Shown one piece after another: positions 41,318 to 61,105 of a stretch of DNA of 64,000 nucleotides. How positions within the stretch are numbered: position 1 is the stretch's first letter; the number at the start of each line of letters is the position of its first letter. The stretch comes from a virus (lineage: Duplodnaviria > Caudoviricetes): the IMG/VR virus record IMGVR_UViG_3300046522_000316, positions 96,001 to 160,000 of that record, one strand, 5' to 3'. Made by a program: the position numbers and the translations under genes. Under the pieces are notes generated by a model. That model had not been told where the DNA came from. It did no database searches and saw nothing but the letters and a program-made list of their open reading frames with translations.

Positions 41318-41329
41318 AAACTGTAAATA
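41318..41329 (+). promoter_or_regulatory. AAACTGTAAATA candidate phage promoter (this copy precedes the candidate RNA)
   Basis: Exact copies start at 5298, 6683, 13390, 13741, 14406, 15408, 22927, 23778, 29309, 41318; ...AAATC variants at 11740, 15445; all on +. Confidence 0.7.
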
Positions 41330-44630: not shown

Positions 44631-45078
44631 ATACGGCCCCAGCCCAATTTTTACGGTCGTTGCTTCGGAGATTCCTAACTCGGGCAAACGACCAGACACA
44701 CCGAAACCAGAAATAAACGAAGTGGGCGAATCGGCATGCGTTACCGGGCTTTCCAGTCTGGCACAGCGCCTGACGCAGGATATTCTTGTGGCCCATGAGC
44801 GCGTGCATTACGGATTTCCAATGCCGCAATTTCTTTTGCTCGCCCATGAATCGGAATTCGATCATCCAGACTTGGCGATTGCACAGCAGCTGCACCAATA
44901 TGTGGAATTTCGGGATATCACAATCGGTTATCCGCTGTCGATCAATGCGTATTTGTATATCACTGATCCAGCGGCTTACGGATTGCCACGCGGCTTAACT
45001 GAGGAAGAGGTTCTGAATAGTTTTCTTCGGAATTCTGTGCGGATTACCTACATCGTCAAGAATACGGATTTAAAATAA
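44620..45078 (+). CDS. Hypothetical protein
   Basis: ORF filling gap, TAATG-coupled to next gene. Confidence 0.6.
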   Translation: MGCEYGPSPIFTVVASEIPNSGKRPDTPKPEINEVGESACVTGLSSLAQRLTQDILVAHERVHYGFPMPQFLLLAHESEFDHPDLAIAQQLHQYVEFRDITIGYPLSINAYLYITDPAAYGLPRGLTEEEVLNSFLRNSVRITYIVKNTDLK

Positions 45079-47605: not shown

Positions 47606-48031
47606 ATGAAAATGATGCTCGCATTAGCGGCCAGTGGTAAAAAGTATTTGTCGGGCGGGCTGATGATTCGGTTGGCCCGGAACTACCCGGATATTCGCGA
47701 CCTCGGTAATCGCCTGCTGCGTCTGCCCATTATCCCGCGTGGGAATTTCGTTCCCAAATTGCCTAAAGGTGATGACCACCTGATCAAGTTTGCAGAACAG
47801 AATAAGTTCTCGCTTTATTACGGTTATCGCGTGTACAAAAACGCAGAAGGCAAAGACCAAATGGAATCTTTGCTGATGTGCGTGGACGACAAGGGCCGCG
47901 TAGTTGAAACCGAAGAAAGCCGGTTGGATAACACGTCGAGTTATGTAGGAATGCGTATCCCGACTGACGATATCAAAAGCCGTCGCTACGCCAACAAATT
48001 CAACCGGATGGATTACCTAAAGGCCCAATGA
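47606..48031 (+). CDS. Tagged hypothetical protein (MKMMLALAA)
   Basis: Shared N-terminal tag. Confidence 0.75.
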   Translation: MKMMLALAASGKKYLSGGLMIRLARNYPDIRDLGNRLLRLPIIPRGNFVPKLPKGDDHLIKFAEQNKFSLYYGYRVYKNAEGKDQMESLLMCVDDKGRVVETEESRLDNTSSYVGMRIPTDDIKSRRYANKFNRMDYLKAQ

Positions 48032-49713
48032 TGGAAATGACAATTGCAGCCTCAGTATCGCCGCCCGGTGCAGCGGATGCGTTCATTAAACTTTTGATCG
48101 CGATTTACAAGGCGCCCGAATTCGACTACGGTACGAATTTTCAAACGAAATTGAAGAAGTGGAACGAACAAGCGCAGCCGTTCCTTGAGCAGTACGCGAT
48201 CAAGCGCACCTTTGCCAAAACTTTGTCGATGTTGGTCAATGGCGAAGACGTATCGAACGAGAAATATTCGATCATCGTGAAGGGCTGTTTCGACTCCCTG
48301 AAAAAGAAAAAGAAATCGTTCGATAAAGACAAAGGTTTGTCCAAGCTGCAATTGAGTTTCCTGAATGACGTGCGTCTGGCCTACAACGGATCGTCGGGTG
48401 CGGGTAATCGCATCATGCAGAACGTTGGCTATTTCAAAGATTCGCATATCAGCAAAATGTTTTTGCACGAAGGCGAACACGTTGACACTTCGGTGCAGCA
48501 ATCGCTTTATGATCGCCTCGAAGAACACGTGAAAACTCACGGCAAAGTGAAGGGCCACGTGATGCCGAATACCACGCTTGAGAAATGGCGTGATAAGGCG
48601 AAAGAAGTGGGCGGCAACCTGACGGAACACCAAGACTATTTGGACATGCGCCGCCAGCGTAAAGCCATCGCAGATAAAGCGATTGCGAATATAGTTCGGG
48701 CATCCGGTGAACACATTGTGGACGTGGACGTAATCCGCGAACAAATGAACGGCGTGCAGCACGATATTCCTGATTGGTTCGTCGGCAAGATCGACGACAA
48801 AGGGAATTACTTCACCACTGACGGTTTGCAACTGCTGAATAAACCGATTGGTGAAGGTTCGATGAACCCGAATTACAAAGCGGGATCGACCGTTTACTAC
48901 TGCCAGTACAAAGCACCATTTGCTGCAAATCTTTCGAACGTCTACACGATTGCAGCCCGTACCGAAGGCCGCGTGCAGTCTTTTAACGTCGTGCAAAACA
49001 TGCTGCCCGATGTGACGAAGTATGTGAAAAAATGGTTGCCTGATTTGGCTAAGGGGCCGGGATCGTTGCGTGGTGTTGCTGCTGCCGTTTGTGAGACGAT
49101 TTACCAGACAAGTGCGCGCATCGGTTCGACCCGTGGCAACACAGCCGGGGAAACGACCTACGGCATTTCTACGCTGCTGCGCAAACACATTCTGTTCAAT
49201 GATCAACGTGCGATTTTCAAGTACATCGGCAAGAAAGGCGGTGCGCAGAAACACGTGATCAAATTCGAAGATCAGCGGACGCAAATGCTGCATGCTGCAC
49301 TTGACGAATTCCTGTACGAGAAAAAGCCAGCGGAATATGTTTTCACTTTCCGTGGCAAACCTCTATCGAACAGCCAAGTGAACGGCTACCTGCGTGACCT
49401 CGGATTTCCTGAAGGTTTCAGCATTCACAAATTCCGTAAGCTGCGCGGTACAGCGATGGCGAAATTGCTGATGGACAAATGCCCGTTTGGTGCCCGCGCC
49501 CGCGATGCTGACGTAAACAAATGGATCGAAACGCAGTGTTTGAAAATCGGTAAGGAACTCGGTCATTTGGCCGGGGAGAAAGTGACGGCCACCACGGCAA
49601 TCGCGAACTATATCGACCCTTCGGTATTCCTGCCGGTCTACGAAAAAACGAACACGCGTCCAAACTCCAAAATCCAAAAAGCGATTGACCTCGCTACGAA
49701 GAGTGCAGAATAA
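48028..49713 (+). CDS. DNA topoisomerase IB with long N-terminal extension (MMEMTIAAS)
   Basis: SARIG (R), YIGKKG (K), IHKFR (R), ELGH (H), ANYIDP (catalytic Y). Confidence 0.9.
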   Translation: MMEMTIAASVSPPGAADAFIKLLIAIYKAPEFDYGTNFQTKLKKWNEQAQPFLEQYAIKRTFAKTLSMLVNGEDVSNEKYSIIVKGCFDSLKKKKKSFDKDKGLSKLQLSFLNDVRLAYNGSSGAGNRIMQNVGYFKDSHISKMFLHEGEHVDTSVQQSLYDRLEEHVKTHGKVKGHVMPNTTLEKWRDKAKEVGGNLTEHQDYLDMRRQRKAIADKAIANIVRASGEHIVDVDVIREQMNGVQHDIPDWFVGKIDDKGNYFTTDGLQLLNKPIGEGSMNPNYKAGSTVYYCQYKAPFAANLSNVYTIAARTEGRVQSFNVVQNMLPDVTKYVKKWLPDLAKGPGSLRGVAAAVCETIYQTSARIGSTRGNTAGETTYGISTLLRKHILFNDQRAIFKYIGKKGGAQKHVIKFEDQRTQMLHAALDEFLYEKKPAEYVFTFRGKPLSNSQVNGYLRDLGFPEGFSIHKFRKLRGTAMAKLLMDKCPFGARARDADVNKWIETQCLKIGKELGHLAGEKVTATTAIANYIDPSVFLPVYEKTNTRPNSKIQKAIDLATKSAE

Positions 49714-49715
49714 AT

Positions 49716-50000
49716 ATGGAAATGATGCTGGCAGTTGCCAACGAAAATCGCAACCCTGTTTCGGTAGACAAATTGCCGAAAGGTTCCAAGGTCACTCATT
49801 TTGTGCTGTATCACGAAGGCACTTTTAACATCTTGGGGCGTGGTCGTGCCGCTACCGCCAAACAGGCGACAAAACAAATGGATCGCCTTATGTCGCTGGG
49901 GATGAAAGCGGATCTTGCGCTTTACGCAGAAGACGGCGACCGCACGGTTTTGCTGCGCGAAACGTATATCCTGAAACGTACCGGCCCTGAGAAGGTTTAA
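49716..50000 (+). CDS. Tagged hypothetical protein (MEMMLAVAN)
   Basis: Shared N-terminal tag. Confidence 0.7.
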   Translation: MEMMLAVANENRNPVSVDKLPKGSKVTHFVLYHEGTFNILGRGRAATAKQATKQMDRLMSLGMKADLALYAEDGDRTVLLRETYILKRTGPEKV

Positions 50001-50003
50001 CAA

Positions 50004-50375
50004 ATGGAATTGCTGATCGCTGTTGCGTCGAACAAAATCGACAAAGGGAATTTGATTCCCGCCGATACGAAAATCCAAGCGTATTCGATCCACGACAACC
50101 ATTCGGAAAAATATCTGAACGCTGGTTCGCATGCGCCGTGCAGTGCGGCCCAAGCGCTGAAGAAAATCAAAGAATTCACCAAACAATACGGCGGCGTCAC
50201 CGTGCTGTTCGACCTGCTGGAACCTAGCGGGCGTACCATCCGCGCCAAGCGTTCTTATTCGATGAATTATGGCGATTTGATTCAGCCGTATCGCGGTACG
50301 GAAACCATCCTGCAAGATGTTATGGCACCAACGCCGAAACCTACGAATCAGGCAAAGAAAGTTCGTCACATTTAA
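50004..50375 (+). CDS. Tagged hypothetical protein (MELLIAVAS)
   Basis: Shared N-terminal tag. Confidence 0.7.
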   Translation: MELLIAVASNKIDKGNLIPADTKIQAYSIHDNHSEKYLNAGSHAPCSAAQALKKIKEFTKQYGGVTVLFDLLEPSGRTIRAKRSYSMNYGDLIQPYRGTETILQDVMAPTPKPTNQAKKVRHI

Positions 50376-50394
50376 TAAAAAGAGCGTGGGACAA

Positions 50395-50700
50395 ATGGAC
50401 GTATACGAAAGCGGTGTTTGTATTGGTCAGCGCGGCGAACAAGGCCCGGAAGGCCCACGCGGCCCCTGTGGCCCTACTTGCAAGGGGCCTGAGTGCGGCT
50501 GTGGCAGTGTGTGCGGGCCTATTGGTCAGCATGGCTTTCCGGGTGCAGATTGGAACGATGGAAAGGGAGGTGATCGTGGAATTCCCGGCCCCGACTACGG
50601 CGGCGATAACGCTGGCCCATCGAAGAAAGAAGCTCACGCTATGCCGTGGTATGTCGCACACGTAATGCGGCAAACGCGCCGTCAACAACGGGTGAATTAA
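50395..50700 (+). CDS. Small Cys-containing collagen-like (Gly-X-Y) protein
   Basis: GQR GEQ GPE GPR GPC GPT ... GPI GQH GFP GAD. Confidence 0.7.
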   Translation: MDVYESGVCIGQRGEQGPEGPRGPCGPTCKGPECGCGSVCGPIGQHGFPGADWNDGKGGDRGIPGPDYGGDNAGPSKKEAHAMPWYVAHVMRQTRRQQRVN

Positions 50701-51129
50701 ATGGAAGTGAATATCGCATTAGGTGCGAGTCCGAATCAGGTTTATTTGTTCTTCGATAAACTGCGTCTGCGCGGATTCGAATTGAGTGAATCCAAATACG
50801 GGCACCCGAAAGCCATCCGCAAATATTACGACTTGTCCGGGCATTACAAATGTTCGGTAAATGTCGGCACCTACAAATTCGGTGAAGGTGCAGGCTGGTA
50901 CGAATACACAGTGTGGGTTGAATCTGCTGTGAAAGACGCAGTGACCGGCGAGCCTGTGGCAGCGGAAGAACTGAAAAACGGTTATTCGTTTACCACGCAG
51001 GACAACGAACGCATTACGCTTTTCACTTATTTCCTCGACTCGATTCTGACGCAGCCTGAATGCGTTGGCCTACCAACTCCGCTTGCCGTGGATGAAGTCC
51101 GCGAAGGCGAATATCGGATTAAATTTTAA
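50701..51129 (+). CDS. Tagged hypothetical protein (MEVNIALGA)
   Basis: Shared N-terminal tag. Confidence 0.7.
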   Translation: MEVNIALGASPNQVYLFFDKLRLRGFELSESKYGHPKAIRKYYDLSGHYKCSVNVGTYKFGEGAGWYEYTVWVESAVKDAVTGEPVAAEELKNGYSFTTQDNERITLFTYFLDSILTQPECVGLPTPLAVDEVREGEYRIKF

Positions 51130-51395
51130 TGGAAATTCAAATGGCTTTGGCCGCGAATAAAAAGCTGGTTCCAACCGGCACCACCATGGCAGGTTTCGAG
51201 ATTCAAAAAGACGGTAGCCCCATGATGACCATCGGCGGCAAATCCACTTGGCCGAGGATCGAAACGCAATTGGCACAGCACATTAAACTGGTCGGTGACG
51301 TGCATCTGGTGATCTGGATTCGCGACAAAAACGGCGACATGACCACGACCAAAACCCTTTACGGCCTCGACGGCGATCAAGTGGTGGAAAAATAA
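51129..51395 (+). CDS. Tagged hypothetical protein (MEIQMALAA)
   Basis: Shared N-terminal tag. Confidence 0.7.
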   Translation: MEIQMALAANKKLVPTGTTMAGFEIQKDGSPMMTIGGKSTWPRIETQLAQHIKLVGDVHLVIWIRDKNGDMTTTKTLYGLDGDQVVEK

Positions 51396-51827
51396 ATGAA
51401 AATGGAAATCGCAACCGCTGCTGAACCGACAATGCTGCCGAGCCGCTACGCCATTGGCGAGCCTGTGTTTTTTCACCCGGCAATTCACGACTTCACGCCG
51501 GAACAAATCCAGAAAAACGCACTGAAAGCCAAAATCATGGGCGTGCGTTTCACCAAAGAAAAAGTGCTGTACGAATTGGCGTTGGATACCGCACTTGATC
51601 CGGGGCCTGCCGAATATTACGAAGCAATTCCACTGGCTGACGTGGATTCGTATTTCGTGCTGAACGCAGCCGATGCAATGGACGGCGACCGTTTGCTGGC
51701 CGACGTTTCCTACATGGCGACTGGCTCCAGCAAAACCCGTACACCACAAGAAATCCGCAAGTTCGCTCAATTCTTTTTGGCGGTTGCGGCTGACCTTCCC
51801 GAACTGCGTAAAGAACAGGGCAAATAA
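51396..51827 (+). CDS. Tagged hypothetical protein (MKMEIATAA)
   Basis: Shared N-terminal tag. Confidence 0.7.
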   Translation: MKMEIATAAEPTMLPSRYAIGEPVFFHPAIHDFTPEQIQKNALKAKIMGVRFTKEKVLYELALDTALDPGPAEYYEAIPLADVDSYFVLNAADAMDGDRLLADVSYMATGSSKTRTPQEIRKFAQFFLAVAADLPELRKEQGK

Positions 51828-51829
51828 AA

Positions 51830-52219
51830 ATGGAAGTGATGATCGCCCTCGGGGCCTCAATTAAAGTCAGTGACCGGGGCGAACATTTCGGTAAAGAATT
51901 TCGTTCCGAACACGGTTACATCTGCGTGAAAACAGGCGGGCAATTCTCGCCATGCAAACACAGCGTAACCGATTACGTGGTTAACGAAGAATCACGCGGA
52001 CAGGGCCACGGTGATTTCCTGCTGAAGGGAATTGTGCGCACGTATAAATCGGATATCGGCGGGCAGGTTAGCAGCATTGCCAGCCTGCACGTGTTCTACA
52101 AAAACGGGTTCCGACCAGCACTCAAACTCGATGCAACTTTGGAAGAGACGAAAAAGCTTTTCAAAGATGAATGGGGTAGCCTGCTGATGGTTTATAAACC
52201 GGCGAAGGATTTCACTTAA
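51830..52219 (+). CDS. Tagged GNAT-fold acetyltransferase (MEVMIALGA)
   Basis: YVVNEESRGQGHGDFLL...VFYKNGF. Confidence 0.7.
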   Translation: MEVMIALGASIKVSDRGEHFGKEFRSEHGYICVKTGGQFSPCKHSVTDYVVNEESRGQGHGDFLLKGIVRTYKSDIGGQVSSIASLHVFYKNGFRPALKLDATLEETKKLFKDEWGSLLMVYKPAKDFT

Positions 52220-53136
52220 TGGAAATGCAATTGGCGTTGGCCGGGAGTTCCGTACTCTATCATTTGATCCCGATGGAATACGCAATTGAAGCAATGCAAA
52301 AAGACCGCTTCCGGCTGATGCCAACCAACGAAGGCGTCGAGTCTGAATTCGGGGATGCTCAATATTTCCTGAGCCTTGCACGTTCGAAACTTTCCGATTA
52401 TTTCATCAAAGAAGCTGGCTCGACGCACGTCATTTTCGTGCTGGACGGCCAGAAGCTGAACGCGAATTACCAAATCAAAGCGGTCGATTATTGGGCGAGC
52501 CAAAAGCACGTTTCCAACGACGAAAAAGAAGACCGCCTGTTCGCAAACAAAATGTACATTCCGTGCATTCGATACATCAAAGAAATCCATTTCATGAAAG
52601 AAAGCGGCAAGTACAAGGAAAACGAATCGTTAACCTTGGCGCTGCTGGCAAAACGCAACAAGATCCAGCTGTTCCAGTACGACGATCAAAAGGCATTTGT
52701 GCGGCTTGATAAACGCAAGACAATCAAGCTGGAAGTTTCCAACATTAAGAAAAAGAAATTCGGTAAGAACGAATGGACGCCCGGCCCGGACTACACGCTA
52801 GAAGCGTGGTATGTCGCATCGCAAATCGTGTTCAAGGGTGACAAGCCGCATTACACGCAATTCATGGCCGGGGCCAAGCACAAAGAAGAACGCAAGGCCC
52901 GCGAACGTGTGGCCCGCGATATTCGAAACCTGATTAAATATCGGGATGTAGAAGCGGGGCCTGTGCGTGACTTCAATCAGTTGGCGGGGTTCCTCAAAGA
53001 TCCGCACGACGCCGAATTTCTGGAAAAGATCAAGCGTGTGAAACGTCGCCTGAAGACCGACACCAAAGGATTTCTTGATTACGTGCGCAAGCGCTGGATG
53101 ACTCAAGAAGAAAAAGAAATGCACGGCTTGGAGTAA
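52219..53136 (+). CDS. Tagged protein with possible ADP-ribosyltransferase fold (MEMQLALAG)
   Basis: LYH ... FLSLARS ... VDYW...DEKEDR. Confidence 0.4.
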   Translation: MEMQLALAGSSVLYHLIPMEYAIEAMQKDRFRLMPTNEGVESEFGDAQYFLSLARSKLSDYFIKEAGSTHVIFVLDGQKLNANYQIKAVDYWASQKHVSNDEKEDRLFANKMYIPCIRYIKEIHFMKESGKYKENESLTLALLAKRNKIQLFQYDDQKAFVRLDKRKTIKLEVSNIKKKKFGKNEWTPGPDYTLEAWYVASQIVFKGDKPHYTQFMAGAKHKEERKARERVARDIRNLIKYRDVEAGPVRDFNQLAGFLKDPHDAEFLEKIKRVKRRLKTDTKGFLDYVRKRWMTQEEKEMHGLE

Positions 53137-53140
53137 ACGC

Positions 53141-54952
53141 ATGGAAATGCAATTGGCTGTGGCCGCAGTACGACTTAGTGTTGCGCGCCCATTCGTAAAG
53201 GGCTGGAATAAAAACGGAATCGGTGTGAAAGCCGTCCGTAAATTCCTGCCTAAAAATAGCAAAGGTTATCGGCTGTATATGCCGATCAAGAAAACGAAGG
53301 CCGACCGCGTAGTGGTGCCACATGCGGTGTTCCACGCAATCCACGAAGCCGGTTACAGCATCGAAGATTACATCAACGGAATCGCGGTGGCTCCGGACGG
53401 TAAACGTCGCGTGCGTATCGGCAAGATTTTGCGCGATGCAGAAGCCATTAAAGAATTCGCAAACGATCCGCAACGTTCGGCCCACAAAGACGAATACACC
53501 TGCGTGATTTCTGCGCATCCTTACGATGTGATCGGAATGTCTACCGGGCGCCGTTGGGATAAGACGACCTGCATGCGCTTAGCAACGCCTGAGAACAAAG
53601 GTGACGCAGGCGAGAAGGCCGTAGAATTCATGCCGGGCACCGTTGCGGAAGGCACGTTGGTTGCCTACGTGATCAGCCCCAAAGATAAAAACATCAACAA
53701 GCCTCACGCTCGCCTGTTGATCAAACCGTACAAGAAAGCCGACGATCAATCTTTCGTTTATTTCAAAGTCGAAACCGCTGTTTACGGCCAGCCTATTCCC
53801 GGTTTTAAACGCACTGTTGAAAACTGGTTGAAGCGTGTGAACAAAGGCGCGCAGGCCGGTATCTACAAGCTGCACAACAGCGTGCATATCGACGGCTCTG
53901 ATGATAAGCGCACGGCGATCATCGCGGATTACGAAACGATCAAAGATAAAGACAATTTCATTCTGAAAAATATGTACCCGGCTGGCGGGCCGAAAGTCTG
54001 GCTGACCGCCGACAAACGTTGGTTGCCCGACATGCTGCGCATCACCACCGACATTCACAATCTGGAAGAAATTCTGAATGCTGCGCGTGGCCTCAACATG
54101 GGCGCGAAAAAGATCGGTGCGATTTACGATCAGGTTATTCCTGCTGACGATCTGCGCAATTACGATCTGGCCGAATTCCTGATGGGCACGCATGCACAGG
54201 AATTGTTCGAAACCAGTAAACACCTTGGTGATGCTGCGCACGAACAATTCGCGTGGAACGAAGACGAAGAACCTACCAACGCCGGTCATGCAATGAAATA
54301 CGGCCTGTACGATTCGCGCTGGCTGGCGAACGTTGACGATATCAGCACCGACCTTTTGCGGCAGGCTGCGCAGAAGTTTATTTATGGCGCTTACCACTGG
54401 ACGAAAGAACTGCAAGATTCTCGGACGCCGGGCGCTGAAAAGATTCGTCTGTATTTCGCATTTGTTTCGCACGGACTTCTGGCCGACACTGGCTGGCTCA
54501 CTCCGCGTGTGAAAATCCAGAACCTGAAAGACTTCGTGAAGAAATCGAAAATTCCTGCCGGTTGGGATGAAAAGATTGTGGACATTGTGCGGTCGTTTGA
54601 CTGGCACCCGAATTTCCGCAACTCGACCTCGAATAATCTTCAGGGTGAAGCCTGCGTGCTGAATGCGGCGCCGGACTGGGCAGCTGTGTTCCCTGAATGG
54701 ATTCCCGAAGCGCGTAAATACCTGAGCGAAAAAGCGGTTGGTGTTCTGGCTAAAATGGCGAAGCACAACAAAGCAATTCGCGAACAGTTGGTCTACTGGG
54801 CCTACGCGCAAAACCGCGATGCACTTTCCAACGGATACCACTGGTTCACCACACGTAAAAACGTGCGTGATTTTATTCACCGCGTAGCTGAATCCAAAGG
54901 CGATGGCGAAGCCGAAGTATTCGCCCAACGCATTCTGTCCCTACAGAGTTAA
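53141..54952 (+). CDS. Tagged large protein, paralog 1 (MEMQLAVAA)
   Basis: HPYDVIGMSTGRRWD..CMRL domain shared with next two genes. Confidence 0.8.
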   Translation: MEMQLAVAAVRLSVARPFVKGWNKNGIGVKAVRKFLPKNSKGYRLYMPIKKTKADRVVVPHAVFHAIHEAGYSIEDYINGIAVAPDGKRRVRIGKILRDAEAIKEFANDPQRSAHKDEYTCVISAHPYDVIGMSTGRRWDKTTCMRLATPENKGDAGEKAVEFMPGTVAEGTLVAYVISPKDKNINKPHARLLIKPYKKADDQSFVYFKVETAVYGQPIPGFKRTVENWLKRVNKGAQAGIYKLHNSVHIDGSDDKRTAIIADYETIKDKDNFILKNMYPAGGPKVWLTADKRWLPDMLRITTDIHNLEEILNAARGLNMGAKKIGAIYDQVIPADDLRNYDLAEFLMGTHAQELFETSKHLGDAAHEQFAWNEDEEPTNAGHAMKYGLYDSRWLANVDDISTDLLRQAAQKFIYGAYHWTKELQDSRTPGAEKIRLYFAFVSHGLLADTGWLTPRVKIQNLKDFVKKSKIPAGWDEKIVDIVRSFDWHPNFRNSTSNNLQGEACVLNAAPDWAAVFPEWIPEARKYLSEKAVGVLAKMAKHNKAIREQLVYWAYAQNRDALSNGYHWFTTRKNVRDFIHRVAESKGDGEAEVFAQRILSLQS

Positions 54953-54956
54953 ACAA

Positions 54957-57716
54957 ATGAAATTAGAAATGGCATTGGCCGCCGTGTCCATGAAAACGGC
55001 ACTGAAATATCGCCGCAATTGGGATCGCAATGCACCGATTGTGAAGCTGTTGCAATCCATGATGCCGTTCGGGCCGGGCAAGAAAGGGTATCGCCTGTAT
55101 TTCGATATCGGTGTGAACCATAAAGCGCACTTCACGGTTCCCCCGGCTGTGCGTTCGGCCCTGCAAAAAGCAGGCTATGCACCAACCGATTATCTGGCGA
55201 AGAAATGCGTCAAGATCGGTGACAAAGAACAGAAGAACGTTTTCAATATCGGCAAAGTAATTGCGAAAGATCCACACGCAAAAGCGGCGTTCGATAACGA
55301 TCCACAATTGCAGAACACCAAACAGGGTGCGTTGCAGGTCGTGATCAGCTGTCACCCGTATGACGTAATCGGTATGAGTACCGGGCGTGCGTGGGACAAA
55401 ATGTCGTGCATGCGCCTTGCTGATGGCGAACACCGTCTCGATCCCGGTTCGAACTCGCATTACGTGCGCAACGACGTTTCGGAAGGCACCTTGGTTGCCT
55501 ACGTTGTCGGCGCCGATGATTCGAATATTCAGCAACCGAAAGCACGCTGCTTGCTGAAGCCTTTCTACAACGAAAAAGGCGAAGTGCTTTATCGTCGTGA
55601 AACCCGCATTTACGGCAACCCGGTTCCCGGTTTCGATATTATTCTTTCGCGTTTTCTGCGTAAGATTAATGCGCACCTTCCGGAAGGCACGTTCCAAATG
55701 GCTAAGGGCCTTTACAACGACGGCATGGGCGATTACACGTACCACAAACCGAGCCATGACGATAACCTGTCGATTGAAGACGTGACGCTTGATCCTGCGC
55801 ACGCCGTGCAATACGTGCAGCAGCAAGTGAAAGCCATGGAAGATCATGCTTTCCGTGATGATCATATCGACAATATCATCACCTTCCTGAACAACGATGA
55901 AATTCAAAGTCGTTTGAAAGAAACGCAAATTGATGAAATCGTCGAAACCCTCAAAGGCGTGAAGGCCGCAGTTAACGGCATTCATTTGCTGGCCTACAAA
56001 GACCAGCCTTTGAGTACGGTGCTGGCCGAAGTCGGTCGCCGCATTGGTTCGTTCGAGAAAACGAAAGGCTTCACGAAAGAAATTCTGGCTGGTCTGGATG
56101 ACGACCGTGTTCACAACCTTTCGCACGGTGGGGGCAATCCCGTAATCGAAGCGCTTAGCCGCGTGGAAGATTTGAACGATTATGAACTGCGTGATAATTC
56201 CCGCATTTTCAAAATGATCCTCACTGGCAAAACTCCAGTGCCTTCGAAAGAAGAATTGGAAAACTTGCCGAATTGCGCACGCATTTTGAATACCGCTGCG
56301 CACGCTGCCCGCCACATGACGATGCTCAATGATGATTCGATGCAGAAAGGTGCATACGCAATTATCGACCTTGGAATTGATGTGGAAAACGCAATCTGGC
56401 TCGGCCCGGATGCAGCTGACATGATGTACGCAACTGGCGGCATTAATCTTTTCCTCGGTTATGTGATGGATAACGTCGGCAAACTGAGTTCGGATGCGTT
56501 GTGGGCCGCTGACCCTGCCGTAACCGCATTGGCGCTCGCGAATCGCCGGGTGTTCCGCTTCCTTGATAAACAGGAAGATCGCCAAATTGCATTCATGATG
56601 GATCATGTGAAAATGGAACAGGTTAAATATCTGATCCTGAATCCGAGTAAAGAACAACTTTTCAAAGACAACAAAGCGGCGCTCATTAAATACCTCGACG
56701 ATAACGAGGAAGTTATTCCGTCGATCCTCGGCAATGGTTGGGAACCGCAGTACGTGAAAAACTTGGCGAATCTCCATTTGCCAGCCGTAATGCATTTGAC
56801 CGAAAGCGATGGCATTTTCACTTCGGGACTAGCCGATACGATGCAGGGGATTATCCCGGCACTTATGGCATGGGACGGCCCGAAACTGGAACCGCTGACC
56901 ACCGATATCGAAAACGCATTGCAGATTATTGTGCAGGCCGGGAACCTTCTGGATAAACCGTTGCATTTGGAACGGAAAATCGACGAAGAACAATTCGAAA
57001 TTCGCGATATCACGGATGTTTCCGACAACTACGTGCAACGCGCTGGCGCCAATCGCTACACCCGCATTAAATCGTTCCCTGAATTGCTGTATAAACTGGA
57101 TTTCAACGGCGAACGTGCGGACATTACCCATTCGACCGAACTCATGGAACATTTGGGCGGCGATGCATTCGGTTGGGTTCCTACCGAGAAGCTTCCGGGC
57201 GAAGTTCGCGGCATGCTGAAACTGGTTCGTGAAATGGATTTAGATCCTGCAATTGATGCGCTCTACAGCCTGATCAACGCCACGCGTTTGCTTCCATTGG
57301 AAGAGGTGGATGCGGGCGTTGAACGACGCATGAATGATCGTGAAATTTTCATGCCCGACGATGACGTATTGGACGAAGACGCTTACGAAGAGGCGGATGC
57401 CGCCTACAATGAAATTCGTCAATCAATTGAAGATGAAATCATTGAGAACAATTACAAAACCCTTCGCCTCAATCGCAAGCTGTTGGAAGCGTTGGAAAAA
57501 GTGAAAGACTTCGTGGGCTACGACGAAGACGTTGATTATTTCGATGACGATGCACCACTCGCCACATTCGCCACCGATTTGACGAACGTTTCCGAAGACG
57601 ATTACGCTGACAATGAAGACCGCGTGCGTGATTTGCGGGCTGAGTTGAAAAGCGAATGCGAAAGCCGTCCGAACGAACAGCAGGAAATGGAAGACGACGC
57701 TGGTTTCAGCGAATAA
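54957..57716 (+). CDS. Tagged large protein, paralog 2 (MKLEMALAA)
   Basis: ATG 54957 follows upstream stop; shared N-terminal domain; acidic C-terminus. Confidence 0.8.
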   Translation: MKLEMALAAVSMKTALKYRRNWDRNAPIVKLLQSMMPFGPGKKGYRLYFDIGVNHKAHFTVPPAVRSALQKAGYAPTDYLAKKCVKIGDKEQKNVFNIGKVIAKDPHAKAAFDNDPQLQNTKQGALQVVISCHPYDVIGMSTGRAWDKMSCMRLADGEHRLDPGSNSHYVRNDVSEGTLVAYVVGADDSNIQQPKARCLLKPFYNEKGEVLYRRETRIYGNPVPGFDIILSRFLRKINAHLPEGTFQMAKGLYNDGMGDYTYHKPSHDDNLSIEDVTLDPAHAVQYVQQQVKAMEDHAFRDDHIDNIITFLNNDEIQSRLKETQIDEIVETLKGVKAAVNGIHLLAYKDQPLSTVLAEVGRRIGSFEKTKGFTKEILAGLDDDRVHNLSHGGGNPVIEALSRVEDLNDYELRDNSRIFKMILTGKTPVPSKEELENLPNCARILNTAAHAARHMTMLNDDSMQKGAYAIIDLGIDVENAIWLGPDAADMMYATGGINLFLGYVMDNVGKLSSDALWAADPAVTALALANRRVFRFLDKQEDRQIAFMMDHVKMEQVKYLILNPSKEQLFKDNKAALIKYLDDNEEVIPSILGNGWEPQYVKNLANLHLPAVMHLTESDGIFTSGLADTMQGIIPALMAWDGPKLEPLTTDIENALQIIVQAGNLLDKPLHLERKIDEEQFEIRDITDVSDNYVQRAGANRYTRIKSFPELLYKLDFNGERADITHSTELMEHLGGDAFGWVPTEKLPGEVRGMLKLVREMDLDPAIDALYSLINATRLLPLEEVDAGVERRMNDREIFMPDDDVLDEDAYEEADAAYNEIRQSIEDEIIENNYKTLRLNRKLLEALEKVKDFVGYDEDVDYFDDDAPLATFATDLTNVSEDDYADNEDRVRDLRAELKSECESRPNEQQEMEDDAGFSE

Positions 57717-57741
57717 AAACAGTAATTTTATAGTATGTTAC

Positions 57742-57777
57742 GCCGGGAAGGTTTAGGCTGACCCGGCTTTCTTTTTT
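57742..57777 (+). terminator. Probable terminator
   Basis: GCCGGG / CCCGGC stem then TTTCTTTTTT. Confidence 0.6.
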
Positions 57778-57791
57778 ATGGATCAAAAAAC

Positions 57792-60455
57792 ATGCTAATT
57801 GACTTGGCTTTCCTCGGTACAGCAGCGGTTTCAATGCGTAGTGCTTTGAAATACCGCCGCAATTGGGATAAGAACGGGCCGACCGTTCAACTGCTTCGCA
57901 AATTCATGCCGCGTGGTTCCAAAGGGTTTCGCGTTTATGTTCCCATTGGTCACGCACAAGTTACGAACAACGTGGTCATTCCGTTGCCAGTTCGTTTGGC
58001 CGTTCGCAAAGCCGGTTTCCGCATCACTGATTACCGGGCGAAACGCTGCGTTAAGCTGAACGATAAAGATCAGAAAAACGTATTCAATATCGGTAAGGTT
58101 ATTTCGAAAGATTCCGTGGCTAAGGCCGCATTCGACAATGACCCGCAATTGCAGAACAGTTCTACCTCCGAATTCACAATGGTTATTTCCTGTCACCCAT
58201 ACGACATTATCGGTATGTCCACTGGCCGTGATTGGGATGAAACCAGCTGCATGCGCATGGGCGATTATCGCGACGATTACAGCGATGGTTCCAACGTCAG
58301 TTATTTGAAACACGACGTGGCCGAAGGAACGTTGGTTGTTTACGCCGTGCGCTCTGATGATCCAAATATCACGAAACCGTTGGGTCGTTGCCTGTTGAAA
58401 CCTTTCCTGCGTGATGACGGATCGGGTTCTATTTTCTACCGTCGTGAAACCGATGTTTATGGCAACCCGGTTCCCGGTCTGGCTGAAACGTTGGCGCGCT
58501 TCCTGCGCAAATTGAATGCCGGTGTTCCTGCCGGGATTTATAAGCTCAACGAAAAGCTTTACAACGACGGCCTTGTACCGCGTGCAGAGAACGATGGTTC
58601 TTCCGAAGGGCCAACCGTTGACTGGGCAGTGGTTGACGATCAGCAGAAGCTGAAAGAACGCCCGGAAATGTTTGCAGATTTTGCGAACTATTTGATGAAA
58701 CGAAACGCGGAAGGAATCACCGACACCAGTGTGGTGATCAACATCCTGATCGACCATGCAAAAACGATCAACGCACGTTTCGTTAAACCAGCGGCCCGCG
58801 TACTTGCCAATCCGAAATTCGCTGCTGCATTCCTTGAACATGCTGCGTCTTCTTTCTCGGATTCCGATTCGGATAGCATCGCTAAATTCATGGCATCGCC
58901 TGAGTTCCGCCGTGCGCTGTTGCTGGCTGAACGCGAAGCAGAAGAGGCGCCGGATACCTACCGTTCGCTTTCGTTCCTGAGTCCGAAAAACGCACATCGT
59001 TATTTCGTGCGTGAAGTAAAAGACAATCCGGACAATTACAACTATGCGGCAATCAGCTACGCGTGCGGCACCGTTGACCTGTTGCCGGACGATGTTGAAT
59101 CCATTCCAGAACTGCACAAACTCGTATTTAAATATGCGGAATTGATTCGCGAAAGTTCTGTGTTTGGTTCGACTGCCTATCAGGAATCGGCACACCGCGT
59201 GCTGTCTACGGTTGAGCCGTACAAAGGCGATTACACGGAAGCGGAAATTCAGGATATCGCGGTAACGTTGGCCGGTGACAAAAAGACTTATCGCGCAATC
59301 ATCGCGTGGTTTATCAATTCCACCAGCGCAAACGACATTGTGACCTCTGATCTGCTGGCCGGTTTCATTCGCGAAGCCCGTTTCCGTTGGGCGCTGCGTG
59401 ATCGTCGGATGCGTAAACGAATTCTCGGCCTGAAAAACATTTCTGCAACAGCGCAAGAAATGGTTGTGCGGTCTATCGACGAACTGATGGACAACCACGA
59501 CGCACAGGATGCAGCCAGCATTCAACGTGACCTGATTGCCCATATGCGCCGTGGTGGTTTCGACTGCCTGACTGCGAAGATGTATATGCGCATTTTGGGT
59601 AACGCACCGCAGCTGTTTAAATCCATCTGGTATTCGCAGGAAAACGAACTCAATGCCAATCTGGTCGAAGAGCTTCTGACCCGGCCTTCGATGTTGAGCA
59701 ACTGCGTTCGTGAGAATCCAGATGCTGTGCCGCAAAACGAATTCCAGAAGAATATTTTCCGTGTGGCGAAAACGTTCGTGGTTGTAATCGGGGAACCAAC
59801 CGAGGAAGACAAAAAGATCGGCGTTGTCGATCCGGACGTAATGAAAATTCTGGTTAAATTCGGTGGTGGAATGCGTGCCCTTGGGCATTACATTATCAAC
59901 CTCGCGGATTACCCGGACTTGCTGAACGGTTCGACCTACGTTGGCGCCGGTATTTTCCCGCTGGATTTGATCGGTGAAGACAACGGCCACAAGTTCCTTG
60001 AATCGCTGCGAGAAAAAGATATCGACGCAACGCAAACCCTGTTGAAAGCTGTAGCGCACGATTTCGCGCAAATGGGTTTGTACGCGGGCGCAGCTACCCG
60101 GCAGAATCGCGTTCTCAGTAATGCCGGTGCCCCTAGCGGTATTGCAACGATGGCGAAATCCCCGCCAGAATTCGCGGTCGCGGCCCAAGGGCGTTACGTT
60201 GCGGCAATTCAGAAGGTGAACAGTTTTATCGAAAACTTCCCGGTAAACGGGACTATCGAAGACTGGGAAAAACTTCTGCCTCTGATGGATATGGAACATC
60301 TGCCAGCCTTCAACGAAATGGTGGACGGCATGCTGGATAATCAGCGGCAAGTTCAACAGACCGCGCAGATGTTTGCGATGTTTGCCCAAGGCGAAACGAA
60401 AGAGGCATTGAAGGCCGCGCTTCCGCCTGACTGGCTCACGATAAAGGATTTGTAA
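57792..60455 (+). CDS. Large protein, paralog 3 (variant tag MLIDLAFLGTAA)
   Basis: Shared N-terminal domain with 53141 and 54957. Confidence 0.8.
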   Translation: MLIDLAFLGTAAVSMRSALKYRRNWDKNGPTVQLLRKFMPRGSKGFRVYVPIGHAQVTNNVVIPLPVRLAVRKAGFRITDYRAKRCVKLNDKDQKNVFNIGKVISKDSVAKAAFDNDPQLQNSSTSEFTMVISCHPYDIIGMSTGRDWDETSCMRMGDYRDDYSDGSNVSYLKHDVAEGTLVVYAVRSDDPNITKPLGRCLLKPFLRDDGSGSIFYRRETDVYGNPVPGLAETLARFLRKLNAGVPAGIYKLNEKLYNDGLVPRAENDGSSEGPTVDWAVVDDQQKLKERPEMFADFANYLMKRNAEGITDTSVVINILIDHAKTINARFVKPAARVLANPKFAAAFLEHAASSFSDSDSDSIAKFMASPEFRRALLLAEREAEEAPDTYRSLSFLSPKNAHRYFVREVKDNPDNYNYAAISYACGTVDLLPDDVESIPELHKLVFKYAELIRESSVFGSTAYQESAHRVLSTVEPYKGDYTEAEIQDIAVTLAGDKKTYRAIIAWFINSTSANDIVTSDLLAGFIREARFRWALRDRRMRKRILGLKNISATAQEMVVRSIDELMDNHDAQDAASIQRDLIAHMRRGGFDCLTAKMYMRILGNAPQLFKSIWYSQENELNANLVEELLTRPSMLSNCVRENPDAVPQNEFQKNIFRVAKTFVVVIGEPTEEDKKIGVVDPDVMKILVKFGGGMRALGHYIINLADYPDLLNGSTYVGAGIFPLDLIGEDNGHKFLESLREKDIDATQTLLKAVAHDFAQMGLYAGAATRQNRVLSNAGAPSGIATMAKSPPEFAVAAQGRYVAAIQKVNSFIENFPVNGTIEDWEKLLPLMDMEHLPAFNEMVDGMLDNQRQVQQTAQMFAMFAQGETKEALKAALPPDWLTIKDL

Positions 60456-60881
60456 ATGGAACTTTTTATTGCACTAGCTGCCGAGGATGTGAGCGCACGG
60501 ATTTCTGACGGTGTGCGTTCCATTCTGAAAAAGTCGTACAGTTCGTTGTTTGCCAATGTGTTCGTGCGGGTTTTCGATATTGATGATCGGCACAAATCTG
60601 ATATCAAAATCGTTCGTGAAATGGCGAAAGAATTTGCACCGGTTTGGGTTACTGTCGAGAACGCACAGCACGATATCGTGACGTTTGTTTTCGCGGTGCC
60701 TACGCTGGCGCCTGTGCTGCACATTCCGAATCCGCCGCTGGCCTACGTGATCCACAACGAAAAAGTCGAGCAATTCAAACTCGAACCACGCGTTGTACAG
60801 GTTCGCGGTGCTGACTACGCAATCGCTGCTGCTGTCGCACGCCGGGCACCGAACTTTATCGAAATTGGAGTGAGCAAATAA
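60456..60881 (+). CDS. Tagged hypothetical protein (MELFIALAA)
   Basis: Shared N-terminal tag. Confidence 0.7.
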   Translation: MELFIALAAEDVSARISDGVRSILKKSYSSLFANVFVRVFDIDDRHKSDIKIVREMAKEFAPVWVTVENAQHDIVTFVFAVPTLAPVLHIPNPPLAYVIHNEKVEQFKLEPRVVQVRGADYAIAAAVARRAPNFIEIGVSK

Positions 60882-61105
60882 TGGAAATGATCCTCTCGCT
60901 TGCGCGGGCTGGATCGGCGGAACGGTGGGATGCAATTCCAGAAGTACGGTTCGACCGTGCGAAGGAAGGGCACTCACTGAATGCGTCCGGCAAACTCACA
61001 AAAAAGCGCCGCAGAAAACGCCTGAAAAGCGGACTGATCGACACGCCTCTAAAGGGCGCAGAGAAACGGCAAATGGATATTCAGGACACGGTTAGATGCC
61101 CGTGA
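60881..61105 (+). CDS. Tagged small basic protein (MEMILSLAR)
   Basis: Shared N-terminal tag. Confidence 0.65.
   Translation: MEMILSLARAGSAERWDAIPEVRFDRAKEGHSLNASGKLTKKRRRKRLKSGLIDTPLKGAEKRQMDIQDTVRCP

What the first reader, a model, noticed from the sequence alone, without database searches (positions are those of the whole stretch)
47606..61105. Cassette of ~14 unrelated proteins sharing an N-terminal MEMxIALAA tag: candidate capsid-cargo targeting system
Seen: starts MKMMLALAA, MMEMTIAAS, MEMMLAVAN, MELLIAVAS, MEVNIALGA, MEIQMALAA, MKMEIATAA, MEVMIALGA, MEMQLALAG, MEMQLAVAA, MKLEMALAA, MLIDLAFLGTAA (variant), MELFIALAA, MEMILSLAR. Similarity ends after about 9 residues, the bodies range from 74 to over 900 aa, synonymous codons vary (so conservation is at peptide level), most genes lack a Shine-Dalgarno and start just after TAA, and no gene upstream of 47.6 kb in the window has the tag. 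Too short and not basic enough for a Sec signal. Known: T4 internal proteins use a 10 aa N-terminal capsid-targeting sequence removed by the prohead protease, and T4 Alt is packaged and injected. Inference: a sorting or cleavage signal loading topoisomerase IB, a GNAT, an ART-like protein and three large paralogs into the head for delivery at infection.
Basis: partly seen in the sequence, partly recalled or inferred. Interest (0 to 1): 0.9.

Follow-up and report, generated by a model that had tools for sequence, protein, structure and literature searches.

The report
Shared leader marks phage head cargo
Fourteen neighbouring genes of a Lu11-like jumbo Pseudomonas phage begin with the same eight-residue leader, which matches the likely cutting site of the phage's head-maturation protease and most probably loads a mixed set of enzymes into the capsid, a new version of the phage T4 'capsid targeting sequence'.

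Summary
Fourteen adjacent + strand genes (47606-61105) start with M-(E/K)-x-x-(I/L/M)-A-(L/V/T)-(A/G); a six-frame regex finds it nowhere else in the window and never in shuffles. Codons vary, and the bodies are unrelated except for three large paralogs.

The window is a jumbo phage related to Pseudomonas phage Lu11, which keeps the tag as MKIQLAVA. The tag core, A-x-A-(S/A), recurs 15-18 times in the scaffold-like head protein of Lu11, HRDY3 and a near-identical metagenomic relative (about 1 expected), and twice in the capsid-protein N-terminus. Erwinia phage Yoloswag has SLSA tags, and its scaffold and capsid propeptide are enriched in S-x-S instead.

The lineage's protease models onto T4 gp21 (Z 7.0). 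The N-domain of the large paralogs defines about 2000 protein clusters. Their 8-9 residue leaders fall, in register, into A-x-A|A, S-x-S|A and T4-like L-x-E|A classes.

Two RsoM2USA proteins that carry a T4-like leader, one of them a homolog of the paralogs, are published abundant virion proteins.

Verdict: a lineage-specific propeptide that doubles as a capsid-targeting leader, a new variant of the T4 system. Cleavage, packaging and injection are inferred, not shown. Other first-stage notes on this genome made the same reading.

The parts
41321..41328 (+). Last copy of the Lu11-type middle/late promoter core CTGTAAAT upstream of the cassette, just after the portal gene. It probably starts the transcription unit that runs into the cassette.
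   Evidence: 13 copies in the window, all on the + strand, against 1.3 expected. The consensus CTGTAAATA....GTA comes from 19 promoters annotated in Lu11. Lu11 has one at the same place after its portal gene.
47606..48031 (+). Tagged protein 1, 141 aa, pI 9.7, MKMMLALA|A; function unknown
   Evidence: Orthologs: Lu11 gp202, and PaBG gp86, which has an S-type leader.
48028..49713 (+). Tagged type IB topoisomerase, 561 aa, with an N-terminal extension of about 300 aa; the leader in register is MEMTIAAS from 48031
   Evidence: Pfam Topoisom_I 5.3e-12, residues 348-490. Lu11 gp203 starts MNVHIAVAA and PaBG gp84 starts MHTSLSAV.
49716..50000 (+). Tagged protein 3, 94 aa, MEMMLAVA|N
   Evidence: Lu11 gp204 starts MKIMLATAA
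50004..50375 (+). Tagged protein 4, 123 aa, MELLIAVA|S
50395..50700 (+). Untagged collagen-like ORF inside the cassette (start uncertain)
   Evidence: Weak Pfam Collagen hit, below threshold. Its orthologs, Lu11 gp205 and the matching HRDY3 ORF, are also untagged.
50701..51129 (+). Tagged protein 5, 142 aa, MEVNIALG|A
51129..51395 (+). Tagged protein 6, 88 aa, MEIQMALA|A
51396..51827 (+). Tagged protein 7, 143 aa, MKMEIATA|A
51830..52219 (+). Tagged small GNAT-like protein, 129 aa, MEVMIALG|A
   Evidence: Pfam Acetyltransf_1 and Acetyltransf_7, E about 0.008, below the curated cut-off. The HRDY3 ortholog carries the tag MEMTLALAA; a GNAT label in the HRDY3 record sits on a different cassette ORF.
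52219..53136 (+). Tagged 305-aa protein, MEMQLALA|G; called ART-like by first readers, not confirmed
   Evidence: No Pfam or PHROG hit. The protein atlas gives only a sub-threshold DarT/PARP lead. Lu11 has three tagged paralogs, gp206, gp208 and gp212.
53141..54952 (+). Large paralog A, 603 aa: 8-residue leader MEMQLAVA|A, then a conserved N-domain of about 250 aa, then a variable C-terminus
54957..57716 (+). Large paralog B, 919 aa from the tag MKLEMALA|A (the ORF's first ATG is 54903)
   Evidence: In relative L012 a stop codon lies directly before the tag.
57792..60455 (+). Large paralog C, 887 aa, 11-residue leader variant MLIDLAFLGTA|A
   Evidence: Lu11 gp215 starts MKIALDFMGTAA.
60456..60881 (+). 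Tagged protein 13, 141 aa, MELFIALA|A
   Evidence: Lu11 gp216
60881..61105 (+). Tagged protein 14, 74 aa, pI 10.4, weaker tag MEMILSLA|R
   Evidence: Lu11 gp217 starts MNILLTVAK

Best explanation
The eight-residue leader M-(E/K)-x-x-(I/L/M)-A-(L/V/T)-(A/G) is an N-terminal propeptide that ends in the recognition site of this phage lineage's prohead protease. That protease is a gp21/assemblin-fold serine protease. Its preferred site appears to be hydrophobic-A-x-A followed by S/A/G, instead of the L/I-x-E of T4 or the A-x-E of SPN3US. The proposed mechanism is as follows. The cassette is made late, probably from the promoter after the portal gene. The leader lets each protein join the scaffold/protease core while the procapsid forms. 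The protease then cuts the scaffold at its 15-18 copies of the same motif, cuts the capsid protein's N-terminal arm, and clips the leader after residue 8. The mature proteins stay in the head with the DNA and are probably delivered to the next host. The cargo is a type IB topoisomerase, a small GNAT-like protein, three large multidomain proteins and eight small proteins of unknown function. Shown: the tag exists, it is conserved, it is identical to the scaffold and capsid-propeptide motif, the two covary between lineages, and the leader classes lie in register. Inferred: the scissile bond, the targeting role and packaging. More speculative: ejection into the host.
For: The numbers in brackets label the evidence lines and are reused in the Against line.

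(1) The tag is significant and confined to one cassette.

(2) Orthologous cassettes keep it. Lu11 gp202-217 carry MKIQLAVA. HRDY3 carries MEMMLALAA. IMG/VR relatives L012 and L013 carry it too. In whole Lu11 it occurs in six frames only in the cassette and in gp068, a 120-aa gene between the scaffold-like gp067 and the protease gp072. A DNA-pattern scan of complete relatives gives the same picture, with 0 hits for the reversed control pattern.

(3) A[VLTIM]A[SAT] occurs 16 times in Lu11 gp067 against 1.06 expected from shuffles. It occurs twice in capsid-protein residues 1-95 (0.14 expected) and not at all in the rest of that protein. HRDY3's scaffold has 9 + 8 copies. L025, a near-identical relative of the window phage, has 15, and L021 has 18. 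The capsid-protein site at residues 68-72 of 364 fits the roughly 20% mass loss reported for the PaBG capsid protein (PMC7412058).

(4) Covariation. Yoloswag tags read ME(K/I)VVSLSA. Its scaffold-like protein has 9 S-x-S-(S/A/G) motifs against 1.04 expected, and its capsid N-terminus has 2 against 0.09. The cross motifs are not enriched in either phage.

(5) The protease model's best structural match is T4 gp21 (5jbl_A; Z 7.0, rmsd 3.8 A, 132 residues). The next rows, at Z 3.5 or less, are herpesvirus proteases. A His and a Ser are invariant.

(6) The site has the same shape as the SPN3US site V-A-x-E|S (PMC10052503).

(7) The N-domain family has 1995 clusters. Among the best 150, leaders lie in register: 38 A-x-A|A, 32 S-x-S|A and 48 x-x-E|A. 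The last class resembles the T4 CTS MKTYQEFIAE (PMC8442874). The leader is disordered in a model with pLDDT 91.

(8) RsoM2USA ORF132 is a homolog of the paralogs and starts MKTFKQFLNTLME|A. ORF89 starts MKTFKQFLSE. Both are among that phage's 10 abundant virion bands (PMC8504454). PaBG gp83 starts MLIKINLLEAVAA|K, is encoded next to the scaffold gene, and is a virion protein (PMC7412058).

(9) In T4 the same three-way pattern is established: protease sites in the scaffold, in the capsid propeptide and at cargo N-termini (PMC5694885, PMC3012670).
Against: There is no proteomic or N-terminal data for this phage, for Lu11 or for HRDY3. The Lu11 record marks none of the cassette proteins as structural. 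The window phage's own head module lies outside the window, so lines (3) and (5) of the For line rest on relatives. The A-x-A and S-x-S patterns were partly defined after seeing the sequences. The repeated scaffold motif could be structural rather than a cleavage site. The protease model is only moderate (pLDDT 69, 10 sequences) and Z 7 is in the grey zone. Residues 1-4 of the leader are more uniform within a genome than a mere cleavage site needs, which is unexplained. The complex prediction of protease with a tagged protein gave no verdict. The PaBG and RsoM2USA proteomes cover only the most abundant bands and did not map N-termini.
Confidence: 0.72

Rival explanations
1. The leader is only a processing site. 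The prohead protease, or another protease, trims these proteins to activate or mature them. Incorporation into the head depends on other parts of the proteins, or does not happen for most of them.
For: The tag core equals the putative cleavage motif. In SPN3US about 80% of head proteins are not cleaved, so packaging and cleavage can be uncoupled (PMC10052503). The N-domain of the large paralogs could itself be the packaging module.
Against: Prohead proteases are normally active only inside the procapsid, so being a substrate implies being there. Eleven small, unrelated proteins share nothing but the leader. In T4 the equivalent 10 residues are sufficient for targeting (PMC8442874, PMC3012670). 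Residues 1-4 of the leader are conserved beyond what internal scaffold sites show.
Confidence: 0.15
2. The shared N-terminus serves gene expression or protein turnover: a translation-initiation context for genes without a Shine-Dalgarno, or an N-terminal degradation or stability signal. It has no link to the capsid.
For: Many tagged genes lack a clear Shine-Dalgarno and are translationally coupled. Codons 2-3 are often GAA ATG.
Against: Codons vary at the conserved Ala positions. Lu11 uses AAA ATC CAA for the same positions. The reading does not explain the same motif inside scaffold and capsid proteins, its covariation in Yoloswag, or the in-register replacement by T4-like leaders. Other genes of the window without a Shine-Dalgarno lack the tag.
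Confidence: 0.05
3. The leader is a relic of cassette shuffling. A shared 5' sequence serves as a recombination site that moves gene bodies in and out of the locus, without a function in the protein.
For: Cassette content differs between the window, Lu11, HRDY3, L012 and L013. T-even internal-protein loci are known to be hyperplastic (PMC3012670).
Against: Nucleotide identity within the tags is low while the peptide is kept. The peptide is retained across phages whose large paralogs are only about 30-40% identical, and a tagged gene sits far from the cassette, next to the protease.
Confidence: 0.04
4. The leader is an export or membrane signal (Sec, Tat or lipoprotein-like) that uses the A-x-A rule of signal peptidase I.
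For: A-x-A followed by a small residue resembles the signal peptidase I motif.
Against: The leader has only 8 residues, an acidic or variable residue at position 2, no basic n-region, no hydrophobic core of 10-15 residues and no lipobox cysteine. The cargo includes a DNA topoisomerase. The motif recurs inside a cytoplasmic acidic scaffold protein.
Confidence: 0.02

Closest known systems
Phage T4 capsid targeting sequence (CTS, MKTYQEFIAE) of internal proteins IPI-III, with the short propeptide of Alt, cut by prohead protease gp21
   Same: A leader of about 8-10 residues is the only thing shared by a diverse, clustered set of proteins. It ends in the prohead-protease site, which also occurs many times in the scaffold and in the capsid propeptide. 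The protease has the same fold family (Z 7.0 to gp21). The cargo includes enzymes. One protein family carries either the T4-like leader or this one at the same position.
   Different: There is no sequence likeness to MKTYQEFIAE. P1 is Ala, Gly or Ser instead of Glu. There are 14 or more cargo genes, including a topoisomerase IB and three proteins of 600-900 aa, against a handful in T4. The host and phage lineage differ (Lu11-like jumbo phages). Targeting and cleavage are not shown experimentally.
Propeptides of head and ejection proteins in phiKZ-like giant phages (SPN3US gp245, site V-A-x-E|S; phiKZ gp175, site S/A/G-x-E)
   Same: These are giant myoviruses with many internal head proteins. 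Their protease site has the same architecture: P4 hydrophobic, P3 small, P1' Ser. Sites are multiple in propeptides.
   Different: Those propeptides are mostly 20-254 residues long and are not a uniform shared tag. P1 is Glu. Most of their head proteins are not cleaved (PMC10052503).
Phage P1 Dar system (the N-terminal 30 residues of DarB act as a capsid targeting signal)
   Same: An N-terminal signal loads large anti-defence proteins into the head for delivery (PMC9024508).
   Different: The signal is longer and is not shown to be a shared tag or a protease site. There is no sequence relation.
Polyvalent proteins and MuF-type polymorphic toxins packaged in phage heads
   Same: The three large paralogs have a conserved N-terminal module and variable C-termini. 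Their family has about 2000 clusters, with lengths of 244-1844 aa.
   Different: The N-domain has no Pfam or PHROG match and only a weak GNAT-like fold likeness (Z 6.0 or less). Loading here would be through the leader.

Membership tests
T4-type capsid targeting sequence system | Short N-terminal peptide shared by otherwise unrelated proteins encoded in a cluster | tested here: met
   14 genes carry it. Bodies are unrelated except for three paralogs.
T4-type capsid targeting sequence system | The peptide ends in the prohead-protease site, which also occurs repeatedly in the scaffold and in the capsid-protein propeptide | tested here: met
   A-x-A-(S/A/T) occurs 15-18 times in the scaffold-like proteins of Lu11, HRDY3, L025 and L021, against about 1 expected, and twice in the capsid N-terminus. 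It covaries with the tags in Yoloswag. The test was done on relatives, because the head module lies outside the window. That the motif is a cleavage site is inferred.
T4-type capsid targeting sequence system | Prohead protease of the gp21/assemblin fold | tested here: met
   The model of the L025 protease (pLDDT 69) matches 5jbl_A best, at Z 7.0 over 132 residues. The next hits are herpesvirus proteases at Z 3.5 or less. No sequence-level hit was found. Moderate strength.
T4-type capsid targeting sequence system | Sequence likeness to MKTYQEFIAE and cleavage after Glu (L/I-x-E) | tested here: not met
   Leaders here read M-E/K-x-x-I/L-A-V/L-A, with no Glu at P1. The T4-like form occurs on homologs in other phages.
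T4-type capsid targeting sequence system | Cargo is present in virions with the leader removed | not testable with these tools
   Only indirect evidence exists: RsoM2USA ORF132 and ORF89, and PaBG gp83, are virion proteins (PMC8504454, PMC7412058). No N-termini were mapped.
T4-type capsid targeting sequence system | The leader is sufficient to package a foreign protein | not testable with these tools
   This needs a leader-reporter fusion in Lu11 or HRDY3.
Sec/Tat/lipoprotein signal peptides | Basic n-region, hydrophobic core of about 10-15 residues, then A-x-A or a lipobox | tested here: not met
   The leader has 8 residues with Glu or Lys at position 2, no h-region and no Cys.
ADP-ribosyltransferase (for the 305-aa cargo, 52219-53136) | Detectable ART/PARP/DarT domain | tested here: inconclusive
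   No Pfam or PHROG hit. The protein atlas places a DarT/PARP cluster only at rank 56 with score 0.80, which is within the chance range. The protein was not folded.
Type IB topoisomerase (48028-49713) | Topoisom_I catalytic core | tested here: met
   PF01028, E 5.3e-12, 46 bits against a cut-off of 23.7, residues 348-490.

The most novel reading that the evidence does not exclude
gp21-fold prohead proteases have switched P1 specificity at least twice (Glu to Ala, Glu to Ser). Each time, the whole set of substrates was retuned with them: scaffold, capsid propeptide and a dozen or more cargo leaders. The 8-residue leader alone would be a portable 'load into the capsid' address for Lu11-like jumbo phages. 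The cassette would be an injected take-over and anti-defence arsenal that includes a virion topoisomerase IB. Its large members would belong to an undescribed family of about 2000 clusters of head-packaged polymorphic effectors with a GNAT-like N-domain.
Probability: 0.45. Interest if true: 0.8.

Novelty: new variant of a known kind. Interest (0 to 1): 0.72.

Why it matters
This would be a second, sequence-unrelated class of capsid targeting leader, and the first outside T4-like and P1 phages. It makes several things directly testable. One is how giant phages choose what to pack beside their DNA. Another is how protease specificity and a whole substrate set evolve together. A third is what a phage gains from bringing a topoisomerase IB, an acetyltransferase-like enzyme and large multidomain proteins into the cell at the first moment of infection. 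It would also give a simple rule for predicting virion cargo from sequence in hundreds of uncultured jumbo phages: an N-terminal leader that matches the scaffold motif. Finally, it would give a tag for loading chosen proteins into Pseudomonas phage heads in laboratory strains, as the T4 CTS is used in E. coli.

Tried and rejected
- **Complex prediction.** The relative's protease (alignment A2) was folded with the 88-aa tagged protein. Score 0.01, no verdict. This is no evidence either way.
- **Family searches of the cargo.** Pfam and PHROGs gave nothing beyond topoisomerase IB, a sub-threshold GNAT and a sub-threshold collagen hit.
- **Protease by sequence.** The Lu11 protease has no Pfam hit and no match to solved structures by sequence. 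Foldseek on the protease model found nothing significant; only the VIA re-alignment singled out gp21.
- **N-domain fold.** Foldseek against PDB found nothing at E 1e-3 or better, and AFDB gave only uncharacterised clusters. The wide VIA search gave only GNAT-fold rows at Z 4-6, which I treat as a lead, not an assignment.
- **'ART-like' 305-aa protein.** The protein atlas gave no usable hit.
- **Published proteomes of close relatives.** The Lu11 genome paper is not held. The Dickeya jumbo-phage paper has no proteomics. PaBG lists only 14 Coomassie bands. Of its unknown virion proteins, gp83 has a leader-like start, while gp191, gp261 and gp263 do not convincingly.
- **Whole genome of the window.** Not held, so the head module had to be studied in Lu11, HRDY3 and IMG/VR relatives.
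- **Rejected readings.** Sec/Tat or lipoprotein signal, an mRNA-level signal, and plain paralogy. Reasons are given under the rival explanations.
Full report
**What the window is.** Nucleotide search finds patchy identity of about 78% to Pseudomonas phage Lu11 (280.5 kb) and to Pseudomonas phage HRDY3 (313.7 kb). The window holds the large terminase (34680-37607) and the portal (39344-41299), in the same order as Lu11 gp188 and gp191. It is therefore a Lu11-like jumbo myovirus. No whole genome is held for it.

**The observation.** A strict regular expression over the six-frame translation of the whole window hits 12 times, only on the + strand between 47606 and 60881, always at or near the first ATG of an ORF. 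It hit 0 times in each of 30 shuffles. The topoisomerase (MMEMTIAAS) and the 887-aa protein (MLIDLAFLGTAA) are variants. A looser N-terminal scan of all 164 ATG-ORFs of 70 aa or more again finds the motif only in this cassette. Codons at the conserved alanines vary freely. After trimming 12 residues, only the three large proteins are related to each other. Pfam recognises a type IB topoisomerase core (E 5.3e-12) and, below threshold, a GNAT and a collagen-like ORF. The collagen-like ORF is the one untagged gene inside the cassette. PHROGs gives nothing. The start of the 937-aa ORF is better placed at 54957, because a relative has a stop codon directly before the tag.

**Conservation.** In Lu11 the orthologous genes gp202-gp217 start with MKIQLAVA and close variants. 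HRDY3 has MEMMLALAA-type tags. Two IMG/VR relatives have 12 and 8 tagged genes. In the whole Lu11 genome a six-frame scan finds the tag only in the cassette and in gp068, a 120-aa gene between the scaffold-like gp067 and the head maturation protease gp072. A DNA-pattern scan of complete IMG/VR relatives gives the same picture and also picks up Lu11 gp219; the reversed control pattern gives 0 hits. Position 2 is Glu throughout the window phage, HRDY3 and L025, but Lys throughout Lu11, and this includes the gene next to the protease.

**The key result: the tag core is the head-protein motif.** Notes from other first-stage readers of this genome pointed to A-x-A-S repeats in its head proteins and to three more leaders in the head module. 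I tested this on relatives.
- Lu11 gp067 is a 634-aa acidic scaffold-like protein annotated 'ATPase'. It holds 16 copies of A-[VLTIM]-A-[SAT] against 1.06 expected from composition-preserving shuffles.
- The first 95 residues of the capsid protein hold 2 copies (0.14 expected) and the rest of the protein none.
- HRDY3's scaffold, split into two ORFs, holds 9 + 8 copies (0.38 and 0.89 expected).
- L025 carries exactly the extra leaders noted for the window's own genome (MEVFIALAAS, MIIALAWAF, MIISLAAS). Its scaffold holds 15 copies, and L021's holds 18.
- The first capsid-protein site ends at residue 72 of 364, which is 20% of the length. PaBG's capsid protein is reported to lose about 20% of its mass on maturation (PMC7412058).
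- The motif has the same shape as the experimentally mapped SPN3US site, V-A-x-E|S (PMC10052503), with Ala in place of Glu.

**Covariation.** Erwinia phage Yoloswag is a distant member of the same group. There the homolog of the large paralogs and another protein start ME(K/I)VVSLSA. Its scaffold-like protein has 9 S-x-S-(S/A/G) motifs (1.04 expected) and the capsid N-terminus has 2 (0.09 expected). A-x-A is not enriched there, and S-x-S is not enriched in Lu11. Two still more distant relatives have clusters of genes beside the protease that start MKI..S.S. PaBG has both motif types in its scaffold, and its leaders are of both types.

**The protease.** The lineage's protease (PHROG 'head maturation protease') has no Pfam hit and no PDB sequence hit. 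A model built from 10 sequences has pLDDT 69. Re-aligned to PDB chains, its best match is T4 gp21 (Z 7.0, rmsd 3.8 A, 132 residues). This stands well above the next rows, at Z 3.5 or less, which are herpesvirus proteases. A His and a Ser are invariant.

**A natural swap experiment.** Residues 1-280 of the 603-aa paralog find 1995 clusters among 1.84 billion representatives. The domain is almost always at the N-terminus of proteins 244-1844 aa long. I aligned the best 150 on the conserved Trp. The residues before the domain are leaders of median length 8-9, in three in-register classes: 38 A-x-A|A, 32 S-x-S|A and 48 x-x-E|A, the last mostly L/I-x-E. The Glu class matches the T4 rule and resembles the T4 CTS MKTYQEFIAE (PMC8442874). 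In the AlphaFold model of the domain (pLDDT 91) the first ten or so residues are disordered and outside the fold. The fold itself has only weak GNAT-like matches.

**Experimental anchors from the literature.** In Ralstonia phage RsoM2USA three unrelated genes start M(K/Q)TFKQFL.
- ORF132 is the homolog of the window's large paralogs. ORF89 is another of the three. Both are among the ten abundant virion bands identified by LC-MS/MS (PMC8504454). I checked their identity by locus tag and mass.
- The third of the three lies two genes from that phage's capsid gene.
- PaBG gp83 is encoded between the topoisomerase and the scaffold gene and starts MLIKINLLEAVAA. It is a virion protein (PMC7412058).
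[quoted passage not shown] The internal proteins are a diverse anti-defence set that share only the CTS (PMC3012670).

**Reading.** The leader is best explained as a lineage-specific propeptide that ends in the prohead-protease site and addresses cargo to the assembling head. The cassette lies downstream of the last Lu11-type middle/late promoter core, at 41321 just after the portal gene, which fits synthesis at the time of head assembly. Eight of the fourteen proteins are basic, with pI above 8.5. The scissile bond (after residue 8), the targeting role, the copy numbers and ejection into the host are all inferences.

**Limits.** There are no proteomic data for this phage, Lu11 or HRDY3. The head module was studied only in relatives. 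The motif definitions were partly made after seeing the sequences. The protease fold match is moderate. The complex prediction gave no verdict. The 'ART-like' label of the 305-aa protein is unconfirmed.

**Novelty.** I found no paper that describes this leader. A full-text search for 'capsid targeting sequence' returns T4, P1 and SPN3US work only. The comparative jumbo-phage survey mentions the Lu11 and PaBG topoisomerase I but no tag. I file the finding as a new variant of a known kind: it works like the T4 CTS system, but it is not a sequence member of it.

Noticed in passing
window 53141-53980, 54957-55750, 57792-58600: The N-domain of about 250 aa in the three large paralogs defines a very large unannotated family: 1995 clusters at E 1e-3 or better, with no Pfam or PHROG model. 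Invariant residues include a Ser-x-His-Pro-Tyr-Asp stretch and a Trp-x4-Cys. The model is confident (pLDDT 91) and its only structural likeness is a weak GNAT-type core (Z 6.0 or less). C-termini are highly variable, and some carry DUF4116 repeats.
   Followed up: partly
L011 8983-11007; L017; L018 (Ralstonia phage RsoM2USA): RsoM2USA has a T4-like capsid targeting sequence, M(K/Q)TFKQFL(S/N), on three unrelated genes. Two of them (ORF89, ORF132) are published abundant virion proteins, and the third (ORF385) lies beside the capsid gene. The paper that reports the proteome does not mention a targeting sequence in the passages retrieved.
   Followed up: partly
window 54903-54956: The 937-aa ORF has 18 in-frame codons upstream of the tag. 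Relatives have a stop directly before the tag, so the real start is probably 54957.
   Followed up: yes
window 50395-50700: A collagen-like (Gly-x-y) ORF without the tag sits inside the cassette. It is also untagged in Lu11 (gp205) and HRDY3. Its start is uncertain and it overlaps a longer ORF that begins at 50317.
   Followed up: no
window 5301-41328, + strand: The Lu11-type middle/late promoter core CTGTAAAT occurs 13 times, all on the + strand (1.3 expected). The last copy, at 41321, lies right after the portal gene. None lies within or just before the cassette.
   Followed up: partly
L004 39347-41251 (Lu11 gp067); L015 6230-8205 (HRDY3); L016 7918-9849 (PaBG gp82); L014 4184-4957 (Yoloswag gp142): These look like mis-annotations in public records. 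The acidic scaffold-like head protein is labelled 'ATPase' in Lu11 and HRDY3 (split into two ORFs in HRDY3) and '60S ribosomal-like protein L2-A' in PaBG. The Yoloswag homolog of the head protease is labelled 'putative endolysin'.
   Followed up: partly
Leaders in the window, HRDY3 (L008, L015), L025 and Lu11 (L001, L004): Leader residues 2-4 differ between genomes in a concerted way: M-E-M-x in the window phage, HRDY3 and L025, against M-K-I-Q in Lu11. The difference includes the tagged gene next to the protease. Internal scaffold sites show no such upstream conservation. This suggests either a second constraint on the leader, such as a receptor contact or initiation context, or gene conversion among leaders.
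   Followed up: no
L016 15445-16791 (PaBG gp89): The PaBG SprT-like protein starts MELAIAS, which is leader-like. Its homolog in the window (45078-46403) starts MANYRYMG, without a leader. Cargo membership may differ between relatives.
   Followed up: no
window 48028-49713 versus 54957-57716: There is a marginal BLASTP match (E 0.002, 59 residues) between the N-terminal extension of the topoisomerase IB (residues about 97-146) and the middle of the 919-aa paralog. It may be a small shared module.
   Followed up: no
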